Shown: positions 105 through 12,312 of the stretch, piece by piece
Numbering within the stretch: position 1 is the first letter of the stretch
How the letters are laid out: each line of letters opens with the position of its first letter
IMG/VR virus record: IMGVR_UViG_3300045988_163868
Location: 1-12,458 of that record
DNA length: 12,458 nucleotides
Strand: one strand, 5' to 3'
From: a virus
The notes under the pieces: generated by a model
Database searches by the model: none
Told to the model about the DNA's origin: nothing
The model's input: only the letters and a program-made list of their open reading frames with translations
Made by a program: the position numbers and the translations under genes

Positions 105-115
105 CATTAAAACAT

Positions 116-166
116 ATTAAAAAGGTAGGTTTATTATGCTAAAGCGCTAAAGCATAAAACCTACCT
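116..166 (-). terminator. Rho-independent terminator ending the minus-strand gene array
   Basis: On the minus strand, AGGTAGGTTTTATGCT (151-166) pairs with AGCATAATAAACCTACCT (123-140). This gives 10 + 6 bp with a 2-nt bulge and a 10-nt loop. It is followed immediately by TTTTTAATATGTTTT. The hairpin starts 40 nt downstream of the ATPase stop codon (206-208). Confidence 0.8.
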
Positions 167-205
167 ATATAATATATTTTAGTGTATTAAAGTGTTAAAA
201 CGGTA

Positions 206-1294: not shown

Positions 1295-3463
1295 TTATAC
1301 TCCATTTCTAAAATTATCAAAAAAAGTGATTGCAAGTTCGTCACGCTTTATACCAAGCGAAAAATTATTTCCGAGTTCGTCAAAAACAAAATCACACAAA
1401 AATGACATAAATTCGGATGACATCTGCATAGTAAACTCTGTTTCTTCTAAGTGAATACAACTTTTAATGTGTTCAATCTCTGAATTTCCGTTATAGTCAA
1501 TCAGAGTAACATTAATTTCATCATCAATGTATGTATGTGTCAATTTTCCTGTTCTGCCTTTTGGTATTTTCAAGTTTGAATTGAACATATTAAAAAACTT
1601 GTTAACATTATTGTTGCATACTGACATCATATAAGGTACTGCATATTTTTTGTTAATACCCGATACGGTAAAGTTTACACTACCGTCATCATATTGATAA
1701 CAATATCTTTTCGCTCCGAGTGTTTTAAACTTCGAGTAGTTTTTTTCAATATCCCAAACCCCGAGTGGATATTTTTTATCGTTTTTTGTAGGTTGCGTTA
1801 ACTCAAAATCAATATTGTAAAAATCACAACATTGTTTTAACTCTTTTGCAACACGCTTGTTGTAAGTATTTATGTATTCTTTGTGTTGTTCAAAATTTAA
1901 AAATTTAATACTGTCAGTATCAGAGTAGATGACATCTTCATTGATGTTTTTAATACCATCAAAAAGTTCATACCTCGCCCACGAAGTTACCCAAACGCCC
2001 CAAGAATATAAAAGAAATTGATTGTAGTTATATTTGTTATCTTTTAAACAATCTTCAATGCTCTTGCGTTCTTTCTGCCATTCGCCGCCGTATAAGATTT
2101 CATCATTGCACGGATTTGTTACGCACATACCATACGCACTATTTAACATACCCTTTTTTATTAAGTATTCTTTTTCATATCCTGCAACACCTTTTAACAT
2201 TGTTTTATCGTTATATAACTTTAATATACATTCAATAATTGTTTTAGGTAAATACTCATATTTGCTGTACCAAAAATTTTTAATTGTGATACTGTCATAT
2301 GTATAAAAATCTTGAATACATTTAAAATCAACATCATTACAGTAAGTTATAATATTGTCAGCTTGCATTATTCTCCCGTTATCGAAAACACCATTTGTGC
2401 AGACAGAGCATTTGGCTCGTTGTATGATGTGATGTGATGTTTTTGCTTTTAAATTAGTAAACATAATTTCAAAAATGCAAGGAAATTTATTTATAAATTC
2501 TGTAAAAGTATCATAATCTATAACATCAATTTTCTTAAATTTTTTCATAGGAAATTTATGTCTAATCATTACTGACGGATAACTACTTGTAAAGTCAATG
2601 CTACTTACATCATTTAGTGTTAAACCAACATAGTTACAATTTGCGTGAGTGTAACCGCCCTGAAAAATTTTGTTAAGCAAAATAAATTCATCGGTTTCGG
2701 GTGAGTTATCTTTGATAAACATACGATACTTTTTATAATTGTTTTCTTTTAAAGCGTTGCGGCAAAATCGTCTAACATATCCTGTTTTGGTAAGCGGTAT
2801 GTTCAAAATATTGTTTTCATTCAAAGCTATTTCTTCATTGATATAGTATTGCAAAATTTTTATATCATATTCGCAGTAGCCGAGTTCGGCGGGGGTCAAC
2901 GGTGTACTTGAATTACGATATAATCTATAATCCAAGTCACCGATTTTTTTGTTTATTTTTACACTTGTTAGATTTTTTGCTATTGTTTCAAGACTTGAAC
3001 AACTTAGCATAAAACTACATTTAAACTCAAAAACTTCGTCTAATGTGAAGTATATCGGCTTTCGCTCTTGTCGAGCAAACATATTTGTAATTTTAAATTC
3101 TTTTCTTAAGAATTGAAATTCATACGCTAAATTCTGTACATAAATTATAATTTTTCTATTGCTGTTTAGTTTGAAATACTCTTTTAACATCATTAGAAAA
3201 TCTTTTAAGTCCTGCCAAGTACGACCAAAATAAACATCTTGACCTACACCGAATTGCCAAATATACATAACTGCTGCTTTGTTATATTTTTCTGTTTCAT
3301 TCGCCTTTGGAATTATTGAGCAACCGTTTTCATAATAAAAACTTGTTGTCTCAATATCAAAAGAAAATGCAGTGTTATAATATTCAATTTTTTGTTTTTT
3401 TGTTTTCTTAGTAACAATATCAAATTTATAATTCTGTACAGGGAAAACAGAAAAATTTAGCAT
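1295..3463 (-). CDS. Protein-primed family-B DNA polymerase (phi29 gp2-like)
   Basis: 722 aa. Motifs seen: ExoI FDIETT; ExoII-like QNLAYEF; SSLETIAK; ExoIII YCEYD; motif A DFTSSYPS; motif B KKGMLNSAYG; WVTSWARYE (phi29 FITAWARYT); motif C YSDTDS; KxY as GAKRYCY. The segment between motifs A and B aligns in length with phi29 TPR1. SD GAGGA lies 7 nt before the ATG. Confidence 0.97.
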   Translation of the reverse strand: MLNFSVFPVQNYKFDIVTKKTKKQKIEYYNTAFSFDIETTSFYYENGCSIIPKANETEKYNKAAVMYIWQFGVGQDVYFGRTWQDLKDFLMMLKEYFKLNSNRKIIIYVQNLAYEFQFLRKEFKITNMFARQERKPIYFTLDEVFEFKCSFMLSCSSLETIAKNLTSVKINKKIGDLDYRLYRNSSTPLTPAELGYCEYDIKILQYYINEEIALNENNILNIPLTKTGYVRRFCRNALKENNYKKYRMFIKDNSPETDEFILLNKIFQGGYTHANCNYVGLTLNDVSSIDFTSSYPSVMIRHKFPMKKFKKIDVIDYDTFTEFINKFPCIFEIMFTNLKAKTSHHIIQRAKCSVCTNGVFDNGRIMQADNIITYCNDVDFKCIQDFYTYDSITIKNFWYSKYEYLPKTIIECILKLYNDKTMLKGVAGYEKEYLIKKGMLNSAYGMCVTNPCNDEILYGGEWQKERKSIEDCLKDNKYNYNQFLLYSWGVWVTSWARYELFDGIKNINEDVIYSDTDSIKFLNFEQHKEYINTYNKRVAKELKQCCDFYNIDFELTQPTKNDKKYPLGVWDIEKNYSKFKTLGAKRYCYQYDDGSVNFTVSGINKKYAVPYMMSVCNNNVNKFFNMFNSNLKIPKGRTGKLTHTYIDDEINVTLIDYNGNSEIEHIKSCIHLEETEFTMQMSSEFMSFLCDFVFDELGNNFSLGIKRDELAITFFDNFRNGV

Positions 3464-6774: not shown

Positions 6775-6796
6775 AATTTTTAACCTTTCTTATTAT

Positions 6797-6842
6797 AAAG
6801 TGTTTCACGTGAAACATTAAAAAGTGTTTCACGTGAAACATT
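6797..6842. promoter_or_regulatory. Twin perfect 16-bp palindromes TGTTTCACGTGAAACA (6801-6816 and 6825-6840) inside a 22-bp direct repeat with a 24-bp period
   Basis: AAAGTGTTTCACGTGAAACATT occurs twice, at 6797-6818 and 6821-6842. It lies in the 75-nt gap between the capsid stop (6850) and the next start (6774). In minus-strand RNA each copy can hairpin and the first is followed by CUUUUU. Alternatively the two self-complementary copies pair with each other into a 16-bp perfect stem with an 8-nt loop. Confidence 0.75.
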
Positions 6843-6849
6843 GATTTAA

Positions 6850-7995
6850 TTATGGTTTGCCTGTAACATCTGCGACAACAAAAACAATACAGTTTTCGTT
6901 AGTATCATTGATATATGAGCAATCCCATTTATGAAAATAGTTGATAAACTCGCCTTTGGCGTTGTACTGACTTGTTGTTCTAGGATTTTCATTACATACA
7001 GCGCATGCATTTTCATCAAAGATTACACCGATAATACCTGTTTTTTCAACATCTGAACCGCTCGCAGTTTTTACAGAAATCTTGCTTATTTCATTAAAAT
7101 CGAAGTTGTCACCTGCTCCGCTACCCTGCCAATACGGTACAGTAGTATAACCAGCAAGCTGCACAAAATTGTTATGATATGTATCAGAGTAAAGATACAC
7201 CTCCGCTGACTTGTCAAACTCAGACAACATAACAATTTTTTGATTTTCTTTTGGTGTAAAGGTTACATAACCTTTATCATTAAAGAGCATTGACGCTCTT
7301 GTCAGATAATCGCTGTAAAGACTAATCTGCTTGCAAGCATAACGCAAAAATTCTTTGTCGCTTAATGCTTTAGCCGCTGCCAGTGTTGTTCCCTTTTCAG
7401 TATTATAATTTGCAAGCAAATTAATAACATTGTTGTTAGCCGCAAACTTTTCAGCAATCAAGTTGTTAATAGTGCGCATTATCATATTGTCAGTGCAAAG
7501 TGTCATTTTCATAATAACACGATTTTCAATCATAGCGAAAAATCTTGACATCTCGCTTGGTGATGTGAACGCTGACTTTATCTGCTCTTCAACAAATGAT
7601 ATTGGTATCTCAAATGTTGTCTTACTGTTGAAAAATTTTGCTTTTACGGTCGGTGGATTGAAAATAAAAGGGTCGTAACTCTGACCTTTTGTCAATTTCC
7701 ATGACGGATTTTCTTCGACGTCTGGGAGTTCACAACGGATTTTTTCCATAATAGAACCAAATTCCCAACTATCTTTGAGAATGTTCGGCGCTGTTGAATT
7801 GTAAGTCCTGTCCCAAAATACAACTCTACCGATACGGTCAATTAATGATCTTGTGTAATTCTCAATGTCAACCGCACCGAGAACCTCACGACCTACATCA
7901 ACGATATTCGTCAAGTCCTCTTTAACTACTGCGCTTTCGCCGATAATTTCTGCGTTAATTGTGTTTAAAATCGCCGCAATTTGTGTAACTTTCAT
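6850..7995 (-). CDS. Major capsid protein, phi29 gp8-like
   Basis: 381 aa. ENYTRSLIDRIGRVVFWD parallels phi29 gp8 NDFITSLVDRIGLVVIRQ at a comparable N-terminal position. The size fits an HK97-fold capsid lacking the C-terminal Ig domain. A structured element follows the gene. Confidence 0.8.
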   Translation of the reverse strand: MKVTQIAAILNTINAEIIGESAVVKEDLTNIVDVGREVLGAVDIENYTRSLIDRIGRVVFWDRTYNSTAPNILKDSWEFGSIMEKIRCELPDVEENPSWKLTKGQSYDPFIFNPPTVKAKFFNSKTTFEIPISFVEEQIKSAFTSPSEMSRFFAMIENRVIMKMTLCTDNMIMRTINNLIAEKFAANNNVINLLANYNTEKGTTLAAAKALSDKEFLRYACKQISLYSDYLTRASMLFNDKGYVTFTPKENQKIVMLSEFDKSAEVYLYSDTYHNNFVQLAGYTTVPYWQGSGAGDNFDFNEISKISVKTASGSDVEKTGIIGVIFDENACAVCNENPRTTSQYNAKGEFINYFHKWDCSYINDTNENCIVFVVADVTGKP

Positions 7996-8742: not shown

Positions 8743-9654
8743 TCACTCCGTTTCTTCTGTTTCTTCTGATTTTTCTATTGTTTTTTGTTTCCAAATATCA
8801 GACAAAACAACATCACAATTAAGATTAAAAAGATTATTAAGTGATTGTACATTGTTTTTCCTCATTTCCAACATTGCATTGATATTAACTTCTGTTGTTG
8901 TATCATTAACTGCAATTTCGTCACTAACGAGCCTTTCTTTTTTCATATTGAAATTAGAATTTACGCCGATTGCGTGATAAAATTGTGCCAAAAAATATTG
9001 CTGAATATCAATTAATGTTTGCAGTGTGGGACTAACAGAGCCGCCACCTGTTGCGAGCGGTGATATTTCAATAGTGCTTGCTATATCGCTTTTTGCTATT
9101 GCAAACCCGTCACCGTTATAAATTTTTTTAAACACTTCTGAAACACTTTTATAAGCGTTTTCAGTATCAGCTGACGCAAAAGCAAAAAATCTTGAATTTT
9201 TTTGAGCAACATTTATAGAGCACTCATTATCAGATAATAAAATAGCTGTTCGATAAATCAGAGAATATAAGCCGCCTTTTTTAACTGACAAAAGCGGAAA
9301 GTCGTTATACTGTATATCTTTAGCTGAATTATACAAAATAACACAATCTTTGTTAATTGTAAATGTATGACTGCCCAAAACGGGATTGGCTATTATATAC
9401 TGCGATGGCATATAATACTCGTTCGGCTCACCTGCAAACCCACCGCTTGCTACATAAAAATCACCATTTAATTTAAAAAAAGCACAATGACCTTTTAAAA
9501 ATAAACATCTGTTCAAATAGTTGACATCAACGCTTTTTGGTAAATTTTCCCATACAAACATATTTGATACTTTATCATACAACATATTAAAGTAATGAAC
9601 GAACCCATCAGCCGAGGTTAAACCTCGACTGACATCATTAGTAATTTTTGCCAT
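8743..9654 (-). CDS. Head-tail connector (portal / upper collar), phi29 gp10-like
   Basis: 303 aa; phi29 gp10 is about 309 aa as I recall. [30 protein letters not shown] parallels gp10 [54 protein letters not shown] parallels [26 protein letters not shown] AGGAG is upstream and the ATG abuts the holin stop. Confidence 0.92.
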   Translation of the reverse strand: [303 protein letters not shown]

Positions 9655-10059
9655 TTATTCCCCACTCCTTTTATTAATTTGTGAAAGAATTTTTTTCAAC
9701 TTTTTCGGAATAGGCAAACCAAGTTTTGCCGAATTTTCAAGAATAGATATTCCCTCATTTGCAAGATAAAAGAAAATAACTGCTGTTCTAATAGCTGTTC
9801 CCTCTTGCAAAATAAATAAATCAATTAAATGAGCAACACCTACTAAAATGAAAATCATCACTTTTTTACAAATTCCCTTAAAGCCAATTTCACTCGAAAG
9901 CTCTTTTGAAATTATTGCATTAATAACACCTGTCAAATAATCAATAATTACAAATGCAATCAACGCATATAAAAAACCGTCACCGCCACCGAAAAACCAA
10001 CCGAGAAATGCCCCGAGCAGAGAAAAAACAACTTGCATTTGTAGTAAAAACTCTCTCAT
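9655..10059 (-). CDS. Holin, phage phiLC3 / TcdE family (Phage_holin_4_1-like)
   Basis: 134 aa with three hydrophobic segments. Family-typical strings: LIAFVIIDYLTGVINAI, SSEIGFKGICKKVMIFILVGVAHLID, RTAVIFFYLANEGISILENSAKLGLPIPKKLKKIL. The start overlaps the previous stop (TAATG). Confidence 0.93.
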   Translation of the reverse strand: MREFLLQMQVVFSLLGAFLGWFFGGGDGFLYALIAFVIIDYLTGVINAIISKELSSEIGFKGICKKVMIFILVGVAHLIDLFILQEGTAIRTAVIFFYLANEGISILENSAKLGLPIPKKLKKILSQINKRSGE

Positions 10060-10466
10060 TATTTTACTTTAACTGCTAAGTAGCTGTTGCCTGTTTTACT
10101 TACACCATATGAAAAATAAAAAACAAATTCCTGCAACACGCTTTCGTCTTCTGCAACATCTGCTATAATGTCTGAAATAGTATCAATAACTACTTTAGAG
10201 CTTGCCAAATAAAACTCCGTTTCGTCATTAGCGTTTACTGTTTCAAAAATTGCAATTTCTGCTACCTCTTTGCTGTCAGCGCCTGCGTTCTTTATTTTCT
10301 CTGCTTTTTCTGTATCTGTAATAATAGTGATTGACTTCACATTACCGATACAAAAGCCGTTTTCGCTGTTCTTTGTGAGTTCTGCAATTGATAAAGCGTC
10401 AATGTTCTTTAACTTAATTTTTTCAACTGTTGTAAGTTCGTGTGTTGATGTGAATACCTTTGCCAT
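10059..10466 (-). CDS. Acidic hypothetical protein, first gene of the late block (candidate scaffold / SSB / other)
   Basis: The ORF track starts at a TTG (10544) with no SD. The ATG at 10466 (MAKVFTS..., 135 aa) has SD AAAGGA about 11 nt upstream, so I prefer it. My count is about 22 D/E against 14 K. I recognised no motif. Confidence 0.6.
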   Translation of the reverse strand: MAKVFTSTHELTTVEKIKLKNIDALSIAELTKNSENGFCIGNVKSITIITDTEKAEKIKNAGADSKEVAEIAIFETVNANDETEFYLASSKVVIDTISDIIADVAEDESVLQEFVFYFSYGVSKTGNSYLAVKVK

Positions 10467-10560
10467 AATTTTTTGTTTCCTTTCTTTTTTGAAAATTTTG
10501 AATTGTGTGTTTTTGTTACTTTTTTGAATTTGAGTAACCAACAAATCCGCTTGAACATTT

Positions 10561-10578
10561 AGAATTTTTAAAAATTCT
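10561..10578. promoter_or_regulatory. 18-bp perfect palindrome AGAATTTTTAAAAATTCT
   Basis: An exact reverse-complement palindrome, 1 nt from 38-bp element B. It overlaps a -10-like TAAAAAT on the minus strand. Confidence 0.5.
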
Positions 10579-10579
10579 A

Positions 10580-10617
10580 TGGTAGTAGTTTTATTTTAAT
10601 TTGCAACTACCAAACAA
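10580..10617 (-). promoter_or_regulatory. Conserved 38-bp intergenic element, copy B
   Basis: TGGTAGTAGTTTTATTTTAATTTGCAACTACCAAACAA matches copy A (11632-11669) at 35 of 38 positions. It contains the dyad TGGTAGT/ACTACCA. It lies between the 94-aa ORF and the late block. Confidence 0.7.
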
Positions 10618-10640
10618 ATTTTTATTTAAACTAATTGCAA

Positions 10641-10925
10641 TTAAGTTGATTTTGTTTCAATCTGCAATGCTCTAGTGATTAAAAATTCTTGTATTTCTAC
10701 TAAGTCATTTAAAATTCTGTAGTATTGTTGTTTTTTTGTTTTATACCTTTCGTAATTTGTCTCTCTCAAAGTATCAACAGTTTTTTCTATTTGTAATATG
10801 TCTGTTGAATATTCATTTGCCCATTGCAAATATTTTTTCGCATATTCATTTTCAAAAAGCGACAAATACAAATTGATTTTTAATTGATTAGTTTTGCCTT
10901 TAAAAATTGATTTACAATTATACAT
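10641..10925 (-). CDS. Hypothetical protein (94 aa, helical, slightly basic)
   Basis: ATG with SD GGTGA upstream, 4 nt after the stop of the HTH gene. No motif recognised. Confidence 0.6.
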   Translation of the reverse strand: MYNCKSIFKGKTNQLKINLYLSLFENEYAKKYLQWANEYSTDILQIEKTVDTLRETNYERYKTKKQQYYRILNDLVEIQEFLITRALQIETKST

Positions 10926-10929
10926 ATTA

Positions 10930-11241
10930 TCACCGATAGAAATATTTGACTACTGCATATATTATTTCCTTTCCTTTTTGCAAATGTCTACTAACTGTAC
11001 TTTGTGCAATATTCAGCTTTTGCGCAATATCTTTATTTTTCAAACCTTTCACATGCAACTCAATAATTTGTTTCTGTCGCTCTGTCAAATTCTCTGATAT
11101 TACATTATTTACAATATCGTCAAAAGTTCTGCGATATTTGTAATTGTTAGCATTTGAATTTTGTTTCAAATATTGCATATATTCAATTTTGTTAGTGTTT
11201 TCTTCACTCAAGTATATTTTTACTGAATGATTAGTAATCAA
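10930..11241 (-). CDS. Sigma-70 region-4-like / LuxR-GerE-type HTH DNA-binding protein
   Basis: 103 aa. LTERQKQIIELHVKGLKNKDIAQKLNIAQSTVSRHLQKGKEII fits the sigma r4_2 / GerE pattern (L..RQ..+..L...G....+IA..L.I...TV..+L). TTG start with SD GAGGTGA about 6 nt upstream. The start overlaps the upstream stop (TTGA). No sigma region 2 is present. Confidence 0.75.
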   Translation of the reverse strand: MITNHSVKIYLSEENTNKIEYMQYLKQNSNANNYKYRRTFDDIVNNVISENLTERQKQIIELHVKGLKNKDIAQKLNIAQSTVSRHLQKGKEIIYAVVKYFYR

Positions 11242-11597
11242 GTTTTATCACCTCGCAAGCGCTGATTAACTTTCTTTAGCATTGTTACATTATGCTTTAT
11301 AACTTCATTAGCTATCTTATATTTTAGTTCAAAGTCAACTATTATAAAGATATGCGCTTTCCGTAAAATTAAGTCACACACCCACGGTACATCTTCAAAA
11401 CTCATTTCATTTGTATGTGCTACAATGTCAATTGCTATGTCAATAATATCATCTGTTGTGATATTATCTTTCTGCGCTTTAGTCAATAAATTGCTAACAT
11501 CTTCGCTATCGCCTAATCTATACCATTTCTGACTGCTGCATAACTTTTCTAACTCTGCTGCCGAAATCTTAATATTAAATTCACAATCATACTTCAT
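11238..11597 (-). CDS. Hypothetical protein (119 aa)
   Basis: ATG with SD AAGAGGT 8 nt upstream. Translationally coupled to the HTH gene. No motif recognised. Confidence 0.6.
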   Translation of the reverse strand: MKYDCEFNIKISAAELEKLCSSQKWYRLGDSEDVSNLLTKAQKDNITTDDIIDIAIDIVAHTNEMSFEDVPWVCDLILRKAHIFIIVDFELKYKIANEVIKHNVTMLKKVNQRLRGDKT

Positions 11598-11631
11598 AAA
11601 GTAGTACCTCTTTTCTATATTAAAACTGTTT

Positions 11632-11669
11632 TGGTAGTAGTCTTATTTTAACTTGCGACTACCAAACAA
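11632..11669 (-). promoter_or_regulatory. Conserved 38-bp intergenic element, copy A
   Basis: TGGTAGTAGTCTTATTTTAACTTGCGACTACCAAACAA lies in the 80-nt gap between the 83-aa and 119-aa ORFs. On the minus strand a -10-like TAATAT begins 9 nt after the element. Copy B has TAAAAAT at almost the same offset. Confidence 0.7.
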
Positions 11670-11677
11670 GTGTTAGT

Positions 11678-12132: not shown

Positions 12133-12161
12133 ATTATACTACAAAATTCTAAAAAAAGCAA
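12133..12161 (-). promoter_or_regulatory. Early sigma-A-type promoter
   Basis: On the minus strand: TTGCTT (12156-12161), a 17-nt spacer, then a perfect TATAAT (12133-12138). It is the only consensus -10 with correct spacing that I found upstream of the first gene. Confidence 0.7.
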
Positions 12162-12177
12162 GTTACAATTTTGTAAC
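12162..12177. promoter_or_regulatory. Dyad GTTACAA-TT-TTGTAAC abutting the -35 box (candidate operator)
   Basis: The 7-bp arms are exact reverse complements. The dyad lies immediately upstream of the -35 hexamer. A related GTTAC(T)...(A)GTAAC dyad occurs at 10515-10538. Confidence 0.5.
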
Positions 12178-12183
12178 CAAATA

Positions 12184-12293
12184 GATCAGGAATGGATCAG
12201 GAATGGATCAGGAATGGATCAGGAATGGATCAGGAATGGATCAGGAATGGATCAGGAATGGATCAGGAATGGATCAGGAATGGATCATGAATG
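12184..12293. repeat. Tandem array: 10 copies of the 11-bp unit GATCAGGAATG (9 perfect, last copy GATCATGAATG)
   Basis: Counted directly from the sequence. There are no spacers. The array lies between the early promoter/operator and the inner edge of the right ITR, and has no counterpart at the left end. Confidence 0.97.
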
Positions 12294-12294
12294 G

Positions 12295-12312
12295 TTGTTA
12301 AAAATTTAACAA
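12295..12312. promoter_or_regulatory. Third copy of the terminal 18-bp palindrome (TTGTTAAA-AA-TTTAACAA), internal to the right ITR
   Basis: It has the same 8-bp arms as 7-24 and 12435-12452 and differs only in the 2-bp centre. It lies between the 11-bp array and the ITR boundary (12317). Confidence 0.6.

What the first reader, a model, noticed from the sequence alone, without database searches (positions are those of the whole stretch)
10580..11669. Two copies of a 38-bp element bracket a three-gene cassette encoding a sigma region-4-only protein
- Elements A (11632-11669) and B (10580-10617) are 35/38 identical. They are the only long repeats outside the ITRs that I found.
- They sit at the two boundaries of the tightly coupled 119-aa / 103-aa / 94-aa block. 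These positions are the early-to-middle and middle-to-late junctions.
- Each contains the dyad TGGTAGT/ACTACCA.
- Two of the three substitutions are complementary: C11:G26 in A against T11:A26 in B, on the plus strand. This preserves an alternative 6-bp stem (GTAGTC/GACTAC versus GTAGTT/AACTAC).
- On the coding strand each element is followed, after about 9 nt, by a -10-like box (TAATAT or TAAAAAT) with no recognisable -35.
- The 103-aa protein has only a sigma-70 region-4 / GerE-type HTH, which is the module that normally reads -35 elements.

Hypothesis: the element is the recognition site through which this protein activates -35-less middle/late promoters. This would be functionally analogous to phi29 p4 at the late A3 promoter, but with an unrelated protein. 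Alternatively the element is an RNA structure acting as an attenuator or processing site.
Basis: partly seen in the sequence, partly recalled or inferred. Interest (0 to 1): 0.65.

Follow-up and report, generated by a model that had tools for sequence, protein, structure and literature searches.

The report
Portable folded intergenic element in gut phages
The two 38-bp repeats are real, but they are copies of a small base-paired (probably RNA pseudoknot) element that also sits at gene-block boundaries in unrelated gut phages, so they look like a portable punctuation signal and not the private binding site of this phage's small sigma-like protein.

Summary
The window is a complete 12.46-kb phi29-like podophage genome with all genes on the minus strand. 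Elements A and B are confirmed as 35/38 identical, with none expected by chance. They flank the 119/103/94-aa block.

New findings:
- On the coding strand the element has two interleaved helices, S1 (5 bp) and S2 (7-8 bp), in the arm order of an H-type pseudoknot.
- All A/B differences in the core are compensatory.
- Across 16 distinct copies, 98.6% of pair cells are paired and 5 of 13 pairs show double changes. All wobble pairs fall on the coding strand.
- The element also occurs in 33-91-kb phage contigs. These contigs share a CRISPR-defined host with the podophage but encode no detectable homologue of the 103-aa protein.
- In those contigs it sits after stop codons, next to canonical promoters or terminators, and at mosaic joints.
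- Relatives that keep the 103/94 genes replace A with a terminator plus promoter, or with terminator-like hairpins. B is always kept.
- The -10-like boxes are not conserved in sequence or spacing.

Verdict: this is a structured, portable intercistronic element. It most likely acts on the transcript (3'-end, attenuation or processing) and serves as a recombination joint. The activator-site hypothesis is not supported, though it is not excluded for B. Function is inferred, not shown.

The parts
11628..11676 (-). Element A, full 49-nt model match. On the minus strand: S1 5' arm 11671-11667 (ACTTG), L1 11666-11665 (TT), S2 5' arm 11664-11657 (TGGTAGTC), L2 11656 (G), S1 3' arm 11655-11651 (CAAGT), A-rich L3 11650-11643 (TAAAATAA), S2 3' arm 11642-11635 (GACTACTA). 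An alternative S2 register pairs 11664-11658 with 11638-11632 (TGGTAGT/ACTACCA).
   Evidence: Covariance-model hit of 73.1 bits, E 2e-17. Sequence. Pair counts.
10576..10624 (-). Element B, same architecture. S1 5' arm 10619-10615 (ATTTG, extendable to 10620), S2 5' arm 10612-10605 (TGGTAGTT), S1 3' arm 10603-10599 (CAAAT), L3 10598-10591, S2 3' arm 10590-10583 (AACTACTA). Alternative S2 register: 10612-10606 with 10586-10580.
   Evidence: Covariance-model hit of 72.2 bits, E 4e-17. Its core is conserved, with at most two 3'-arm substitutions, in all 14 relatives that carry the 103-aa gene.
10560..10579 (-). The outer pair covaries (C-G in L120). The central A/T run varies in length among relatives. 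In several relatives the same palindrome also lies in the spacer of the early promoter.
   Evidence: two copies per genome in L040, L122, L124 and L132, against 0.13 expected.
10515..10538 (-). Hairpin in the leader of the first late gene. The stem covaries (GTTAC/GTAAC, GCTACT/AGTAG, TTAT/ATAA, TTGC/GCAA) and the loop TCAAATTCAAAAAA is conserved. It is preceded by the conserved block GTTCAAGCGGATTTGTT (10540-10556). The whole module is duplicated in L120.
10930..11241 (-). 103-aa protein. Stand-alone LuxR/GerE / sigma-70 region-4 HTH at residues 50-92. It aligns to the C-terminal half of ECF sigma factors.
   Evidence: Pfam GerE 1.5e-11 and Sigma70_r4_2 6.4e-11. TIGR02937, residues 14-93 onto profile positions 81-160 of 165. 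Best PDB matches are the C-terminal HTH domains of NarL, StyR and VpsT.
10641..10925 (-). 94-aa protein of unknown function. It is always found with the 103-aa gene.
   Evidence: No family hit. Present in all relatives.
11238..11597 (-). 119-aa accessory gene in a variable slot just after A. In relatives the slot is empty, holds a truncated remnant, or holds a Sequestin-domain (anti-defence sponge) gene.
10059..10466 (-). First gene after B (135 aa from ATG 10466). It starts the roughly 10-kb block of lysis, structural, replication and packaging genes.
12133..12161 (-). Early promoter: TTGCTT (12161-12156), 17-nt spacer, TATAAT (12138-12133), ahead of the 60-aa gene. Relatives have TTGAAT/TTGATT-17-TGaTATAAT. 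The palindrome TTACAAAATTGTAA (12176-12163) lies just upstream.
6789..6842 (-). Tandem 24-bp units containing GTTTCACGTGAAAC, followed by T runs. This is a terminator-like feature after the major capsid gene. The same motif occupies A's position in the L002/L124 relatives.

Best explanation
A and B are two copies of a roughly 45-nt structured element that folds on the coding strand, most likely as RNA.

**Structure.** Two helices are interleaved in the order S1(5')-S2(5')-S1(3')-S2(3'). This is the topology of an H-type pseudoknot, with a 2-nt loop 1 and an A-rich loop 3.

**Distribution.** The element is a portable module shared among several different phages of one gut Firmicute host.

**Proposed function (inferred).**
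- It sits just after a stop codon, at the border between gene blocks.
- I propose it acts in cis on the transcript as punctuation. It would define or protect a 3' end, attenuate read-through, or direct processing, and so set how much transcription from the right-end early promoter reaches the next block.
- In this phage that means A gates entry into the 119/103/94 block, and B gates entry into the late genes.
- Its conserved sequence also makes it a crossover point where gene cassettes are exchanged.
- It does not need the 103-aa protein.

**Shown:** the repeat, the pairing and covariation, the coding-strand bias, the wider distribution, the boundary and mosaic-joint positions, and the replacement by terminator-type elements in relatives.

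**Inferred:** that the folded molecule is RNA, that both helices form at once, and the punctuation mechanism itself.
For: **1. Pairing.**
- In 16 distinct copies, S1 is 98.8% paired and 3 of its 5 pairs show double changes: AU/CG/GC, CG/UA and UA/CG.
- S2 is 98.2-98.4% paired in either register, with double changes at 16-39 (or 16-42) and at 20-35.
- No shuffle in 500 reaches the observed covariation score. Only 3 of 500 reach 5 covarying pairs.
- Slid-partner controls give 17-75% paired (also 53, 54, 76, 77, and RNAalifold).

**2. Strand.** The one-sided changes are mostly A-to-G on the 3' arm opposite U, giving U.G (5 cells at 13-42, 2 cells at 19-39); the diverged L109 copy adds two on the 5' arm, one of which creates a further G.U. 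On the other strand these would be A.C mismatches. Every copy points the same way as its flanking genes.

**3. Distribution.**
- The same element occurs in IMG/VR and ENA contigs of 33-91 kb (L021/L109, L135/L137, L029/L057/L160, L154, L158, L159, L152) and in an Anaerofustis MAG contig (L142).
- Two protein scans find the 103-aa family only in the 12-kb podophages.
- One CRISPR array (L151) carries dozens of spacers against both phage groups. They therefore share a host.

**4. Position.**
- The element lies 6-23 nt after a stop codon.
- In L109, L159 and L160 a canonical promoter follows it.
- In L160 it ends a roughly 360-nt unit with no convincing ORF, lying between two duplicated promoters.
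- In L109 two copies bracket a promoter-gene-terminator unit.

**5. Positional equivalence.**
- A's place holds a GC hairpin with a T run plus TTTACA-17-TGaTATAAT in L120.
- It holds hairpin-plus-T-run CACGTG repeats in L002/L124.
- The same CACGTG motif follows the capsid gene in the window.

**6. Mosaic joints.**
- The left flank of L158 matches L021/L109 (90-91%). Its right flank matches L137/L135 (89-90%), starting about 20 nt after the element.
- A in L127 looks like a left/right chimera of two S1 types.
- The gene slot after A is variable.
Against: - Neither transcript ends nor RNA folding are observed.
- **Not a canonical terminator.** The stems are AU-rich, the loop is 14-19 nt, and no U tract abuts the stem.
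- **Modest folding energies.** Values are -8 to -12 kcal/mol, with z-scores of -1.2 to -2.4.
- **Closely related copies.** All copies are at least about 80% identical. Conservation partly reflects recent transfer, and the covariation rests on few independent events.
- **Exceptions exist.** Three pair cells are unpaired under each S2 register: L127 A at 6-26 (C.U) under both, two in L135 under the 13-20/35-42 register, and two at 14-44 (L127 B, the second L109 copy) under the 13-19/39-45 register. One CRISPR protospacer variant would have a U.U outer pair.
- **Other routes to compensatory change.** Template switching within a DNA quasi-palindrome could produce compensatory changes without any RNA function.
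- **A weak promoter-like pattern.** Four large-phage copies share [T/G]T[A/G]AAA-17-[T/C]AGAAT in a fixed register.
- **B tracks the 103-aa gene.** B co-occurs with that gene in every relative.
Confidence: 0.4

Rival explanations
1. The element is a duplex-DNA operator. The 103-aa sigma-region-4/GerE-type protein binds it and recruits host RNA polymerase to -35-less middle (A) and late (B) promoters.
For: - The 103-aa protein is a bona fide stand-alone region-4/LuxR HTH.
- B is present in all 14 loci that carry the gene, and both are absent from the more distant relative L133.
- -10-like hexamers follow both copies. L120 has a perfect TATAAT after B with no -35.
- No canonical promoter is visible in the intergenic DNA directly ahead of the late genes.
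Against: - The element is found in phages with no detectable 103-aa relative.
- It lies at variable distances upstream of complete promoters, or after a terminator.
- A is dispensable in relatives that keep the gene.
- Arm variation is compensatory and strand-biased, not symmetric half-site conservation.
- Distance from B to the -10-like box varies by up to 4 nt.
- A's box is not conserved and sits 19 nt from the ATG.
- The half-sites lie 20-26 bp apart centre to centre. LuxR-type dimers usually bind half-sites about 10 bp apart (established knowledge).
Confidence: 0.13
2. A composite terminator/promoter cassette of the PeSL type. The hairpin part ends upstream transcripts. A weak host sigma-A promoter is embedded in the element, with its -35 in loop 3 and a TAGAAT -10 just after the element. 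The whole module is shuffled between phages by homologous recombination.
For: - A fixed-register [T/G]T[A/G]AAA-17-[T/C]AGAAT is present in L154, L158, L159 and the second L109 copy. In L109 a canonical terminator lies immediately upstream and the next gene has no other promoter.
- Copies bracket cassettes in both the window and L109.
- Mosaic joints lie at the element.
- PeSLs are described as small composite terminator/promoter motifs that mediate modular shuffling (PMC4122927, PMC2839356).
Against: - The register is lost in window A and B. TAGAAT is 3 nt closer in B and absent in A.
- Matches of 8-9 out of 12 are common in this AT-rich DNA: 77 found against 64 expected.
- The hairpin lacks terminator features.
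Confidence: 0.15
3. A protein-independent antitermination RNA of the put or nut kind. The nascent pseudoknot modifies the polymerase that transcribed it. Transcription then runs through downstream terminators such as the hairpins after the capsid gene.
For: - The element sits in early operons 0.5-1.7 kb downstream of a divergent repressor-like gene in the large phages, and after the first two early genes here. This is a nutR/putR-like position.
- S2 and loop 3 are sequence-conserved, which suggests specific recognition.
- An internal terminator-like site exists in the late block.
Against: - No sequence or structural similarity to put or nut. Nothing was found in Rfam.
- In L109 and L160 a promoter lies downstream of the element, so the element is not part of that promoter's transcript.
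Confidence: 0.1
4. A DNA-level recombination or mobility sequence with no role in expression, for example a quasi-palindrome that folds in single-stranded DNA during replication or recombination. Compensatory changes would arise by intrastrand template switching.
For: - Mosaic joints and a chimeric copy in L127.
- Direct repeats flank cassettes.
- Near-identical copies occur in otherwise different phages.
Against: - The orientation relative to transcription is constant.
- Placement after stop codons is strict.
- The G.U pattern is confined to one strand.
- Loops as well as stems are conserved.
Confidence: 0.1

Closest known systems
PeSL mobile regulatory cassettes of T4-type phages (PMC2839356, PMC4122927)
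   Same: Both are short conserved intergenic motifs that flank variable genes, lie at mosaic joints, and combine transcript-boundary signals. Copies on both sides of a cassette are seen here in the window and in L109.
   Different: PeSLs are a defined early promoter plus a simple stem-loop in Gram-negative myoviruses. This element has two interleaved helices, no clear terminator or promoter consensus, and no sequence similarity. It occurs in Firmicute gut phages, including a 12-kb podophage.
RNase III processing sites between early genes of T7, and of SP82/SPO1 in Bacillus (own knowledge)
   Same: Both are repeated, mutually similar structured elements in intercistronic gaps of one long early transcript, a few nucleotides after stop codons and ahead of the next ribosome-binding site. 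The T7 sites leave a protective 3' structure on the upstream mRNA.
   Different: RNase III sites are roughly 20-bp interrupted hairpins. Here the helices are 5 and 7-8 bp and interleaved. Cleavage was not tested.
HK022 put and lambda nut RNA sites (own knowledge)
   Same: Both are cis-acting RNA structures, present in two copies per genome in early transcripts after the first genes. The put and nut sites control passage of polymerase into later genes.
   Different: No sequence or structural match. The put site is two tandem stem-loops of about 70 nt, and nut needs the N protein. Some copies here lie upstream of the next promoter.
phi29 p4 at the A3 late promoter; Mu Mor/C at -35-less promoters (own knowledge)
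   Same: A small phage regulator, and an element with dyad symmetry ahead of late genes that lack a -35.
   Different: In those systems the dyad is a duplex-DNA site at a fixed distance from the -10, and it co-occurs with its protein. Here spacing varies, the variation is compensatory and strand-biased, and the element occurs without the protein.
Classical H-type pseudoknots with an A-rich loop 3: T4 gene 32 leader, preQ1-I riboswitch (own knowledge)
   Same: Arm order, a short loop 1 (2 nt), a short loop 2 (1-2 nt) and an A-rich loop 3 of 8-12 nt. Like the gene 32 case, B lies at the 5' end of a long A/U-rich leader.
   Different: No Rfam model matches. S2 is longer than in preQ1-I. The downstream genes share no common function, so a ligand or autoregulatory role is not indicated.

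Membership tests
Activator-dependent -35-less promoter (phi29 p4/A3 or Mu Mor/C type) | A -10 element conserved at a fixed distance from the activator site | tested here: not met
   A: TAATAT becomes TAAATA in L040, L122, L123 and L131. B: the central A/T run varies from 8 to 11 nt. The TAGAAT box is 0 or 3 nt from the element depending on the copy.
Activator-dependent -35-less promoter (phi29 p4/A3 or Mu Mor/C type) | The site co-occurs with the gene of its binding protein | tested here: not met
   B is present with the gene in 14 of 14 loci. A is absent from 6 loci that carry the gene. The element is present in at least 10 contigs of larger phages with no detectable relative of the protein. 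Caveat: only parts of the large contigs were held.
Activator-dependent -35-less promoter (phi29 p4/A3 or Mu Mor/C type) | The protein binds the duplex site and stimulates transcription | not testable with these tools
   Needs EMSA or footprinting, and in vitro transcription.
Intrinsic (Rho-independent) terminator | A G+C-rich hairpin with a short loop, immediately followed by a U tract | tested here: not met
   Not reported by the terminator scan. The stem is 7-8 bp with 3 G-C pairs, the loop is 14-19 nt, and the nearest U run starts 4-9 nt after the stem.
H-type RNA pseudoknot | Arm order S1-S2-S1'-S2' with sterically allowed loop lengths | tested here: met
   S1 5 bp, L1 2 nt, S2 7-8 bp, L2 1-2 nt, L3 8-12 nt.
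H-type RNA pseudoknot | Both helices supported by covariation | tested here: met
   S1 has 3 of 5 pairs with double changes. S2 has 1-2 pairs with double changes, plus wobble pairs created by one-sided changes. Overall 98.4-98.6% paired. No shuffle in 500 reaches the covariation score. The number of independent events is small.
H-type RNA pseudoknot | Both helices form at the same time in the RNA | not testable with these tools
   ViennaRNA predicts no pseudoknots. Needs SHAPE/DMS probing or a solved structure. Mutually exclusive hairpins remain possible.
PeSL-like mobile regulatory cassette | A conserved intergenic motif that flanks variable genes and lies at mosaic joints | tested here: met
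   Variable slot after A. L158 left and right flanks match different phages. Copies bracket a promoter-gene-terminator unit in L109.
PeSL-like mobile regulatory cassette | A composite of a functional promoter and a terminator | tested here: inconclusive
   Only a weak fixed-register promoter-like pattern in 4 copies. No terminator consensus.
Any described RNA family (Rfam 15, including phi29 pRNA, preQ1, pistol) | A covariance-model match | tested here: not met
   No hit at A or B, even at E up to 10.
LuxR/GerE / sigma-70 region-4 HTH (the 103-aa protein) | A domain match above the curated cut-off, with no region 2 | tested here: met
   GerE 44.1 bits (cut-off 23.5) and Sigma70_r4_2 42.2 bits (cut-off 25.7). 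TIGR02937 matches only profile positions 81-160.

The most novel reading that the evidence does not exclude
A previously undescribed pseudoknot RNA motif is carried as a portable module by unrelated phages of one gut Firmicute: a 12-kb protein-primed podophage and 33-91-kb phages. It would act without any phage protein as a signal to the host transcription or RNA-decay machinery, for example a put-like antiterminator, a non-canonical terminator, or a nuclease-blocking or processing structure. At the same time it would serve as the crossover point for cassette exchange.
Probability: 0.3. Interest if true: 0.7.

Novelty: new member of a known kind. Interest (0 to 1): 0.5.

Why it matters
Gene regulation in the tiny phi29-like phages of gut anaerobes is essentially unknown, and their hosts are hard to grow.

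- A short element with covariation support, shared by very different phages of one host, is a concrete handle on how these phages divide a single long transcript into early, middle and late doses.
- It is also a handle on how regulatory and anti-defence cassettes move between phages.
- If it is a protein-independent RNA signal, it would add a new motif to the small set of phage RNAs that act directly on host polymerase or nucleases. It could also be used as an annotation marker for operon boundaries.
- The practical lesson is that the adjacent sigma-region-4 protein should not be assumed to read this element. Better candidates for its operator are the palindromes at the early promoter and after B.

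Tried and rejected
- **phi29-type packaging RNA (pRNA).** The B-to-ATG gap is 174 nt and a gp16-type ATPase is present. However, Rfam gives no hit, A is only 80 nt, and the element occurs in large non-phi29 phages. Rejected.
- **Canonical terminator.** Not called by the scan.
- **Known riboswitch or ribozyme** (preQ1-I, pistol and others). No Rfam match.
- **L093/L140 'copy' with CATGC/GCATG.** It lies antisense inside a T7-like primase ORF. This is a chance match and was excluded.
- **L151 'copy'.** It is a CRISPR spacer, not an element. Excluded from the alignment and used only as a host link.
- **Genome-collection hits L141 and L143-L146.** These fall in coding DNA of unrelated MAGs and are chance matches.
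- **L147/L150, L148/L155, L153/L161.** These match only the 5' part. They were left out as unproven.
- **A large environmental family, GAGttTGGTAGTtCTC...ACTACCA.** It has a similar arm order, but its S2 identity was imposed by my search pattern. Not pursued.
- **Megablast of the genome against GenBank phages.** No match.
- **Idea that the gene after B is an SSB regulated like T4 gene 32.** No family hit and no similarity to the L133 counterpart. Left as speculation.
- **Split-sigma idea** (the 94- or 119-aa protein supplying region 2). No region-2 signal.
- **Third copy in the window.** None was found with the covariance model and filters off. The next best hit scores 14.7 bits.
Full report
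**What the window is.**
- The 12,458-bp window has perfect 142-bp inverted terminal repeats. Every long ORF is on the minus strand.
- It encodes a gp16-type packaging ATPase (206-1291), a family-B DNA polymerase (1295-3463), a phi29-type capsid protein (6850-7995), an upper collar connector (8743-9654) and a holin (9655-10059).
- It is therefore a complete genome of a very small phi29-like podophage, read from right to left.
- GenBank phages hold nothing similar.
- Human-gut metagenome contigs of 11.7-12.4 kb are close relatives.

- A (11632-11669) and B (10580-10617) are the only two matches to a 38-nt pattern. No match appeared in 200 shuffles.
- Similarity runs over 62 nt.
- The repeats occupy two of only three internal non-coding gaps longer than 25 nt. 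A lies between the 83-aa and 119-aa genes. B lies between the 94-aa gene and the first gene of the long lysis/structural/replication block.
- The 103-aa protein is a stand-alone LuxR/GerE / sigma-region-4 HTH.

**Anatomy on the coding strand.** Read on the minus strand, the two copies are:
- A: 5'-[ACTTG]TT[TGGTAGTC]G[CAAGT]TAAAATAA[GACTACTA]CCA
- B: 5'-[ATTTG]TT[TGGTAGTT]G[CAAAT]TAAAATAA[AACTACTA]CCA

Two helices are interleaved. S1 is the first and third brackets. S2 is the second and fourth. This is the arm order of an H-type pseudoknot, with loop 1 of 2 nt, loop 2 of 1 nt, and an A-rich loop 3 of 8 nt.

That register gives a 12-nt loop 3.

All differences between A and B within this core form two compensatory pairs.

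**The element is not private to this phage.**
- Pattern scans of IMG/VR, of metagenome contigs and of species-representative genomes found the same element in contigs of 33-91 kb (L021/L109, L135/L137/L149, L029/L057/L160, L152, L154, L158, L159). They also found it in a 32-kb contig of an Anaerofustis MAG (L142).
- These are different phages. Their neighbourhoods are arrays of small early-type genes next to a divergent repressor-like gene. In L160 a RelE/RHH toxin-antitoxin pair is present.
- They do share individual early genes with the podophage. The 60-aa protein is 76-82% identical in L137 and L021. The 83-aa gene is 78% identical at the DNA level in L159.
- A covariance model built from the copies found a second, diverged copy in L109/L021 at 43.6 bits.
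- Several apparent copies were discarded:
  - one pair lies antisense inside a primase gene;
  - five genome hits fall in coding DNA;
  - one is a CRISPR spacer.

**Pairing is under selection, on the coding strand.** Statistics for 16 distinct sequences:

| Measure | Result |
|---|---|
| S1, cells paired | 98.8% |
| S1, pair types | AU/CG/GC, CG/UA, UA/CG at three of five positions |
| S2, cells paired | 98.2-98.4% in either register |
| S2, double changes | the diverged L109 copy at 16-39 (or 16-42), and the B copies and that copy at 20-35 |
| Shuffles reaching the covariation score | 0 of 500 |
| Shuffles reaching five covarying pairs | 3 of 500 |
| Paired cells when partners are slid 1-3 columns | 17-75% |

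- Most one-sided changes are A-to-G on the 3' arm opposite a U, and these arose in at least three lineages; the diverged L109 copy also has two on the 5' arm (G14 to A, A17 to G). All of them keep a standard pair, and the G.U pairs they create are good pairs only on the coding strand.
- The 5' arm of S2 is invariant in 15 of 16 copies.
- This is the signature of a folded single strand. It is not the signature of two half-sites read by a protein dimer.
- Caveats:
  - The copies are closely related, so the number of independent events is small.
  - Three pair cells are unpaired under each S2 register: L127 A at 6-26 under both, two in L135 under the 13-20/35-42 register, and two at 14-44 (L127 B, the second L109 copy) under the 13-19/39-45 register.
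  - Folding energies are modest.
  - Whether both helices form together cannot be computed here.

**Where it sits.** Every copy points the same way as its flanking genes. Where a same-strand gene lies upstream, the element starts 6-23 nt after that gene's stop codon. What follows differs by context:
- the next ribosome-binding site, 20-40 nt on (window A, L040, L127, L154, L158, L135, L137);
- a complete TTGAC-17-TATAAT promoter starting about 35-45 nt on (L109, L159, L160);
- in window B, a palindrome and a structured 115-nt leader.

Two contexts are especially informative:
- In L160 the element closes a roughly 360-nt unit with no convincing ORF. That unit starts at one promoter and is followed by a near-duplicate of the same promoter.
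- In L109 two copies bracket a promoter, a 64-aa gene and a canonical terminator. This parallels the way A and B bracket the three-gene block here.

**What relatives do at A and B.**
- B's core is conserved, with at most two substitutions in the 3' arm, in all 14 loci that carry the 103-aa gene. This includes L120, whose 103-aa protein is only 65% identical.
- A is present in nine of these loci. In the others it is replaced:
  - In L120/L121 by a canonical GC hairpin with a T run, followed by TTTACA-17-TGaTATAAT.
  - In the L002/L124 group by two terminator-like GTTTCACGTGAAAC hairpins with T runs, followed directly by a Sequestin-domain anti-defence gene.
- The same CACGTG motif follows the capsid gene in the window.
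- The more distant relative L133 has neither the 103-aa gene nor A/B. It punctuates its genome with about nine copies of GTTGCAACGTTGCAAC.
- By position, then, A is interchangeable with terminator-type punctuation.

**Recombination.**
- The left flank of L158 matches L021/L109. Its right flank matches L137/L135, starting about 20 nt past the element.
- The A copy in L127 pairs a CC-type left arm with an A-type right arm, producing its single mismatch.
- The gene slot after A varies among a 119-aa gene, nothing, a remnant, and Sequestin.
- The element is therefore a mosaic joint, as described for the PeSL terminator/promoter motifs of T4-type phages (PMC4122927, PMC2839356).

**The activator-site hypothesis.**
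- The protein family is confined to the 12-kb podophages, whereas the element is not.
- A is dispensable.
- The -10-like boxes are not conserved. A's TAATAT becomes TAAATA in relatives and sits 19 nt from the ATG, which would leave a leader of only 11-13 nt.
- The A/T run between B and its box varies by up to 4 nt.
- A weak fixed-register promoter-like pattern exists in four large-phage copies. It is lost in the window.
- A better candidate operator for a phage regulator is the palindrome GAATTTT(n)AAAATTC. In L040, L122, L124 and L132 it occurs exactly twice: in the spacer of the early promoter and directly after B (0.13 expected). In the window only the copy after B is intact.
- A 103-aa-dependent late promoter somewhere in the B region cannot be excluded.

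**Most likely mechanism, and how sure.**
- Well supported, at about 0.8: the element folds on the coding strand.
- Moderately supported, at about 0.6: the element works independently of the 103-aa protein.
- Inference from position and from what replaces it, giving about 0.4 for the whole statement: the element acts as transcript punctuation. That could mean forming or protecting a 3' end, attenuating read-through, or directing processing.
- Variants remain open: put-like antitermination, a PeSL-like embedded promoter, and a purely DNA-level recombination role.
- No Rfam family matches, so this is a new motif of a familiar kind.

**Host.**
- L151 is a CRISPR array with a 30-nt repeat and at least 137 spacers.
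- Dozens of its spacers match the podophage family, and dozens match the large phages.
- Two spacers fall on the element itself. One matches window 11670-11636 at 35 of 35 positions.
- Both phage groups therefore infect the organism that carries this array. The Anaerofustis MAG hit suggests, but does not prove, its identity.

Noticed in passing
L151 (metagenome contig ERZ773188 NODE-284), about 4637-13700: A large CRISPR array with repeat CTATAAATCTATCCATATTGGATTTTAAAT and at least 137 spacers. Many spacers match the window and its relatives, and many others match the 33-91-kb phages that carry the element. Two spacers overlap the element; one is 35/35 identical to window 11670-11636. This links both phage groups to one host.
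   Followed up: partly
window 6789-6842 (minus strand); L002 about 700-770; L133 at 74, 610, 2578, 4209, 5713, 8107, 8880, 10735, 12467: A second kind of punctuation. In the window, tandem palindromes GTTTCACGTGAAAC followed by T runs lie after the capsid gene, and the same motif sits at A's position in the L002/L124 relatives. The more distant relative L133 has about nine copies of GTTGCAACGTTGCAAC at gene boundaries.
   Followed up: partly
window 10560-10579; L040 191-206 and 1264-1280; L122, L124, L132 likewise: The palindrome GAATTTT(n)AAAATTC occurs twice per genome in several relatives: in the spacer of the early promoter and right after B (0.13 expected). It is a candidate operator for a phage regulator, perhaps the 103-aa protein. 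In the window the promoter copy is degenerate.
   Followed up: partly
window 12163-12176 (minus strand): The palindrome TTACAAAATTGTAA lies immediately upstream of the -35 of the early promoter. It is conserved in L040, L122 and L132.
   Followed up: no
window 12158-12300: About ten tandem 11-bp units (GGATCAGGAAT on the plus strand) lie between the right ITR and the early promoter. Copy number differs among relatives: 3-4 in L002, about one in L040.
   Followed up: no
window 10515-10556; L120 1262-1345: The late-gene leader holds a hairpin with a covarying stem and a conserved loop, TCAAATTCAAAAAA. It is preceded by the conserved block GTTCAAGCGGATTTGTT. The whole module is duplicated in L120.
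   Followed up: partly
window 11238-11597; L124 771-1226; L127 208-360: The slot just after A is a variable accessory position. It holds a 119-aa gene of unknown function here, nothing in L040/L122, a 50-aa remnant in L127, and a Sequestin-domain gene (a sponge for immune-signalling nucleotides) in L002/L124.
   Followed up: partly
L109 6380-6960 (minus strand); L021 1048-1096: A second, diverged copy of the element (43.6 bits) lies 448 nt after the first. Together the two copies bracket a canonical promoter, a 64-aa gene and a canonical terminator. This is a moron-like unit flanked by two copies.
   Followed up: yes
L142 (Anaerofustis sp. MAG contig) and L160 4677-6036: In these contigs the element lies between two near-duplicate TTGACT-17-TATAAT promoters. 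It is downstream of a divergent ribbon-helix-helix-like gene and upstream of a RelE/ParE-like toxin with an RHH-type partner.
   Followed up: partly
window 109-180: A long imperfect hairpin, AAAACATATTAAAAAGGTAGG...CCTACCTATATAATATATTTT, lies after the packaging ATPase gene. It is partly inside the left ITR, and its function is unknown. Rfam gives only chance-level miRNA-like hits.
   Followed up: no
window 10059-10544: The 161-aa TTG ORF listed mechanically most likely starts at ATG 10466 (135 aa), behind a GAAAGGAAAC ribosome-binding site. This start is conserved in relatives.
   Followed up: yes
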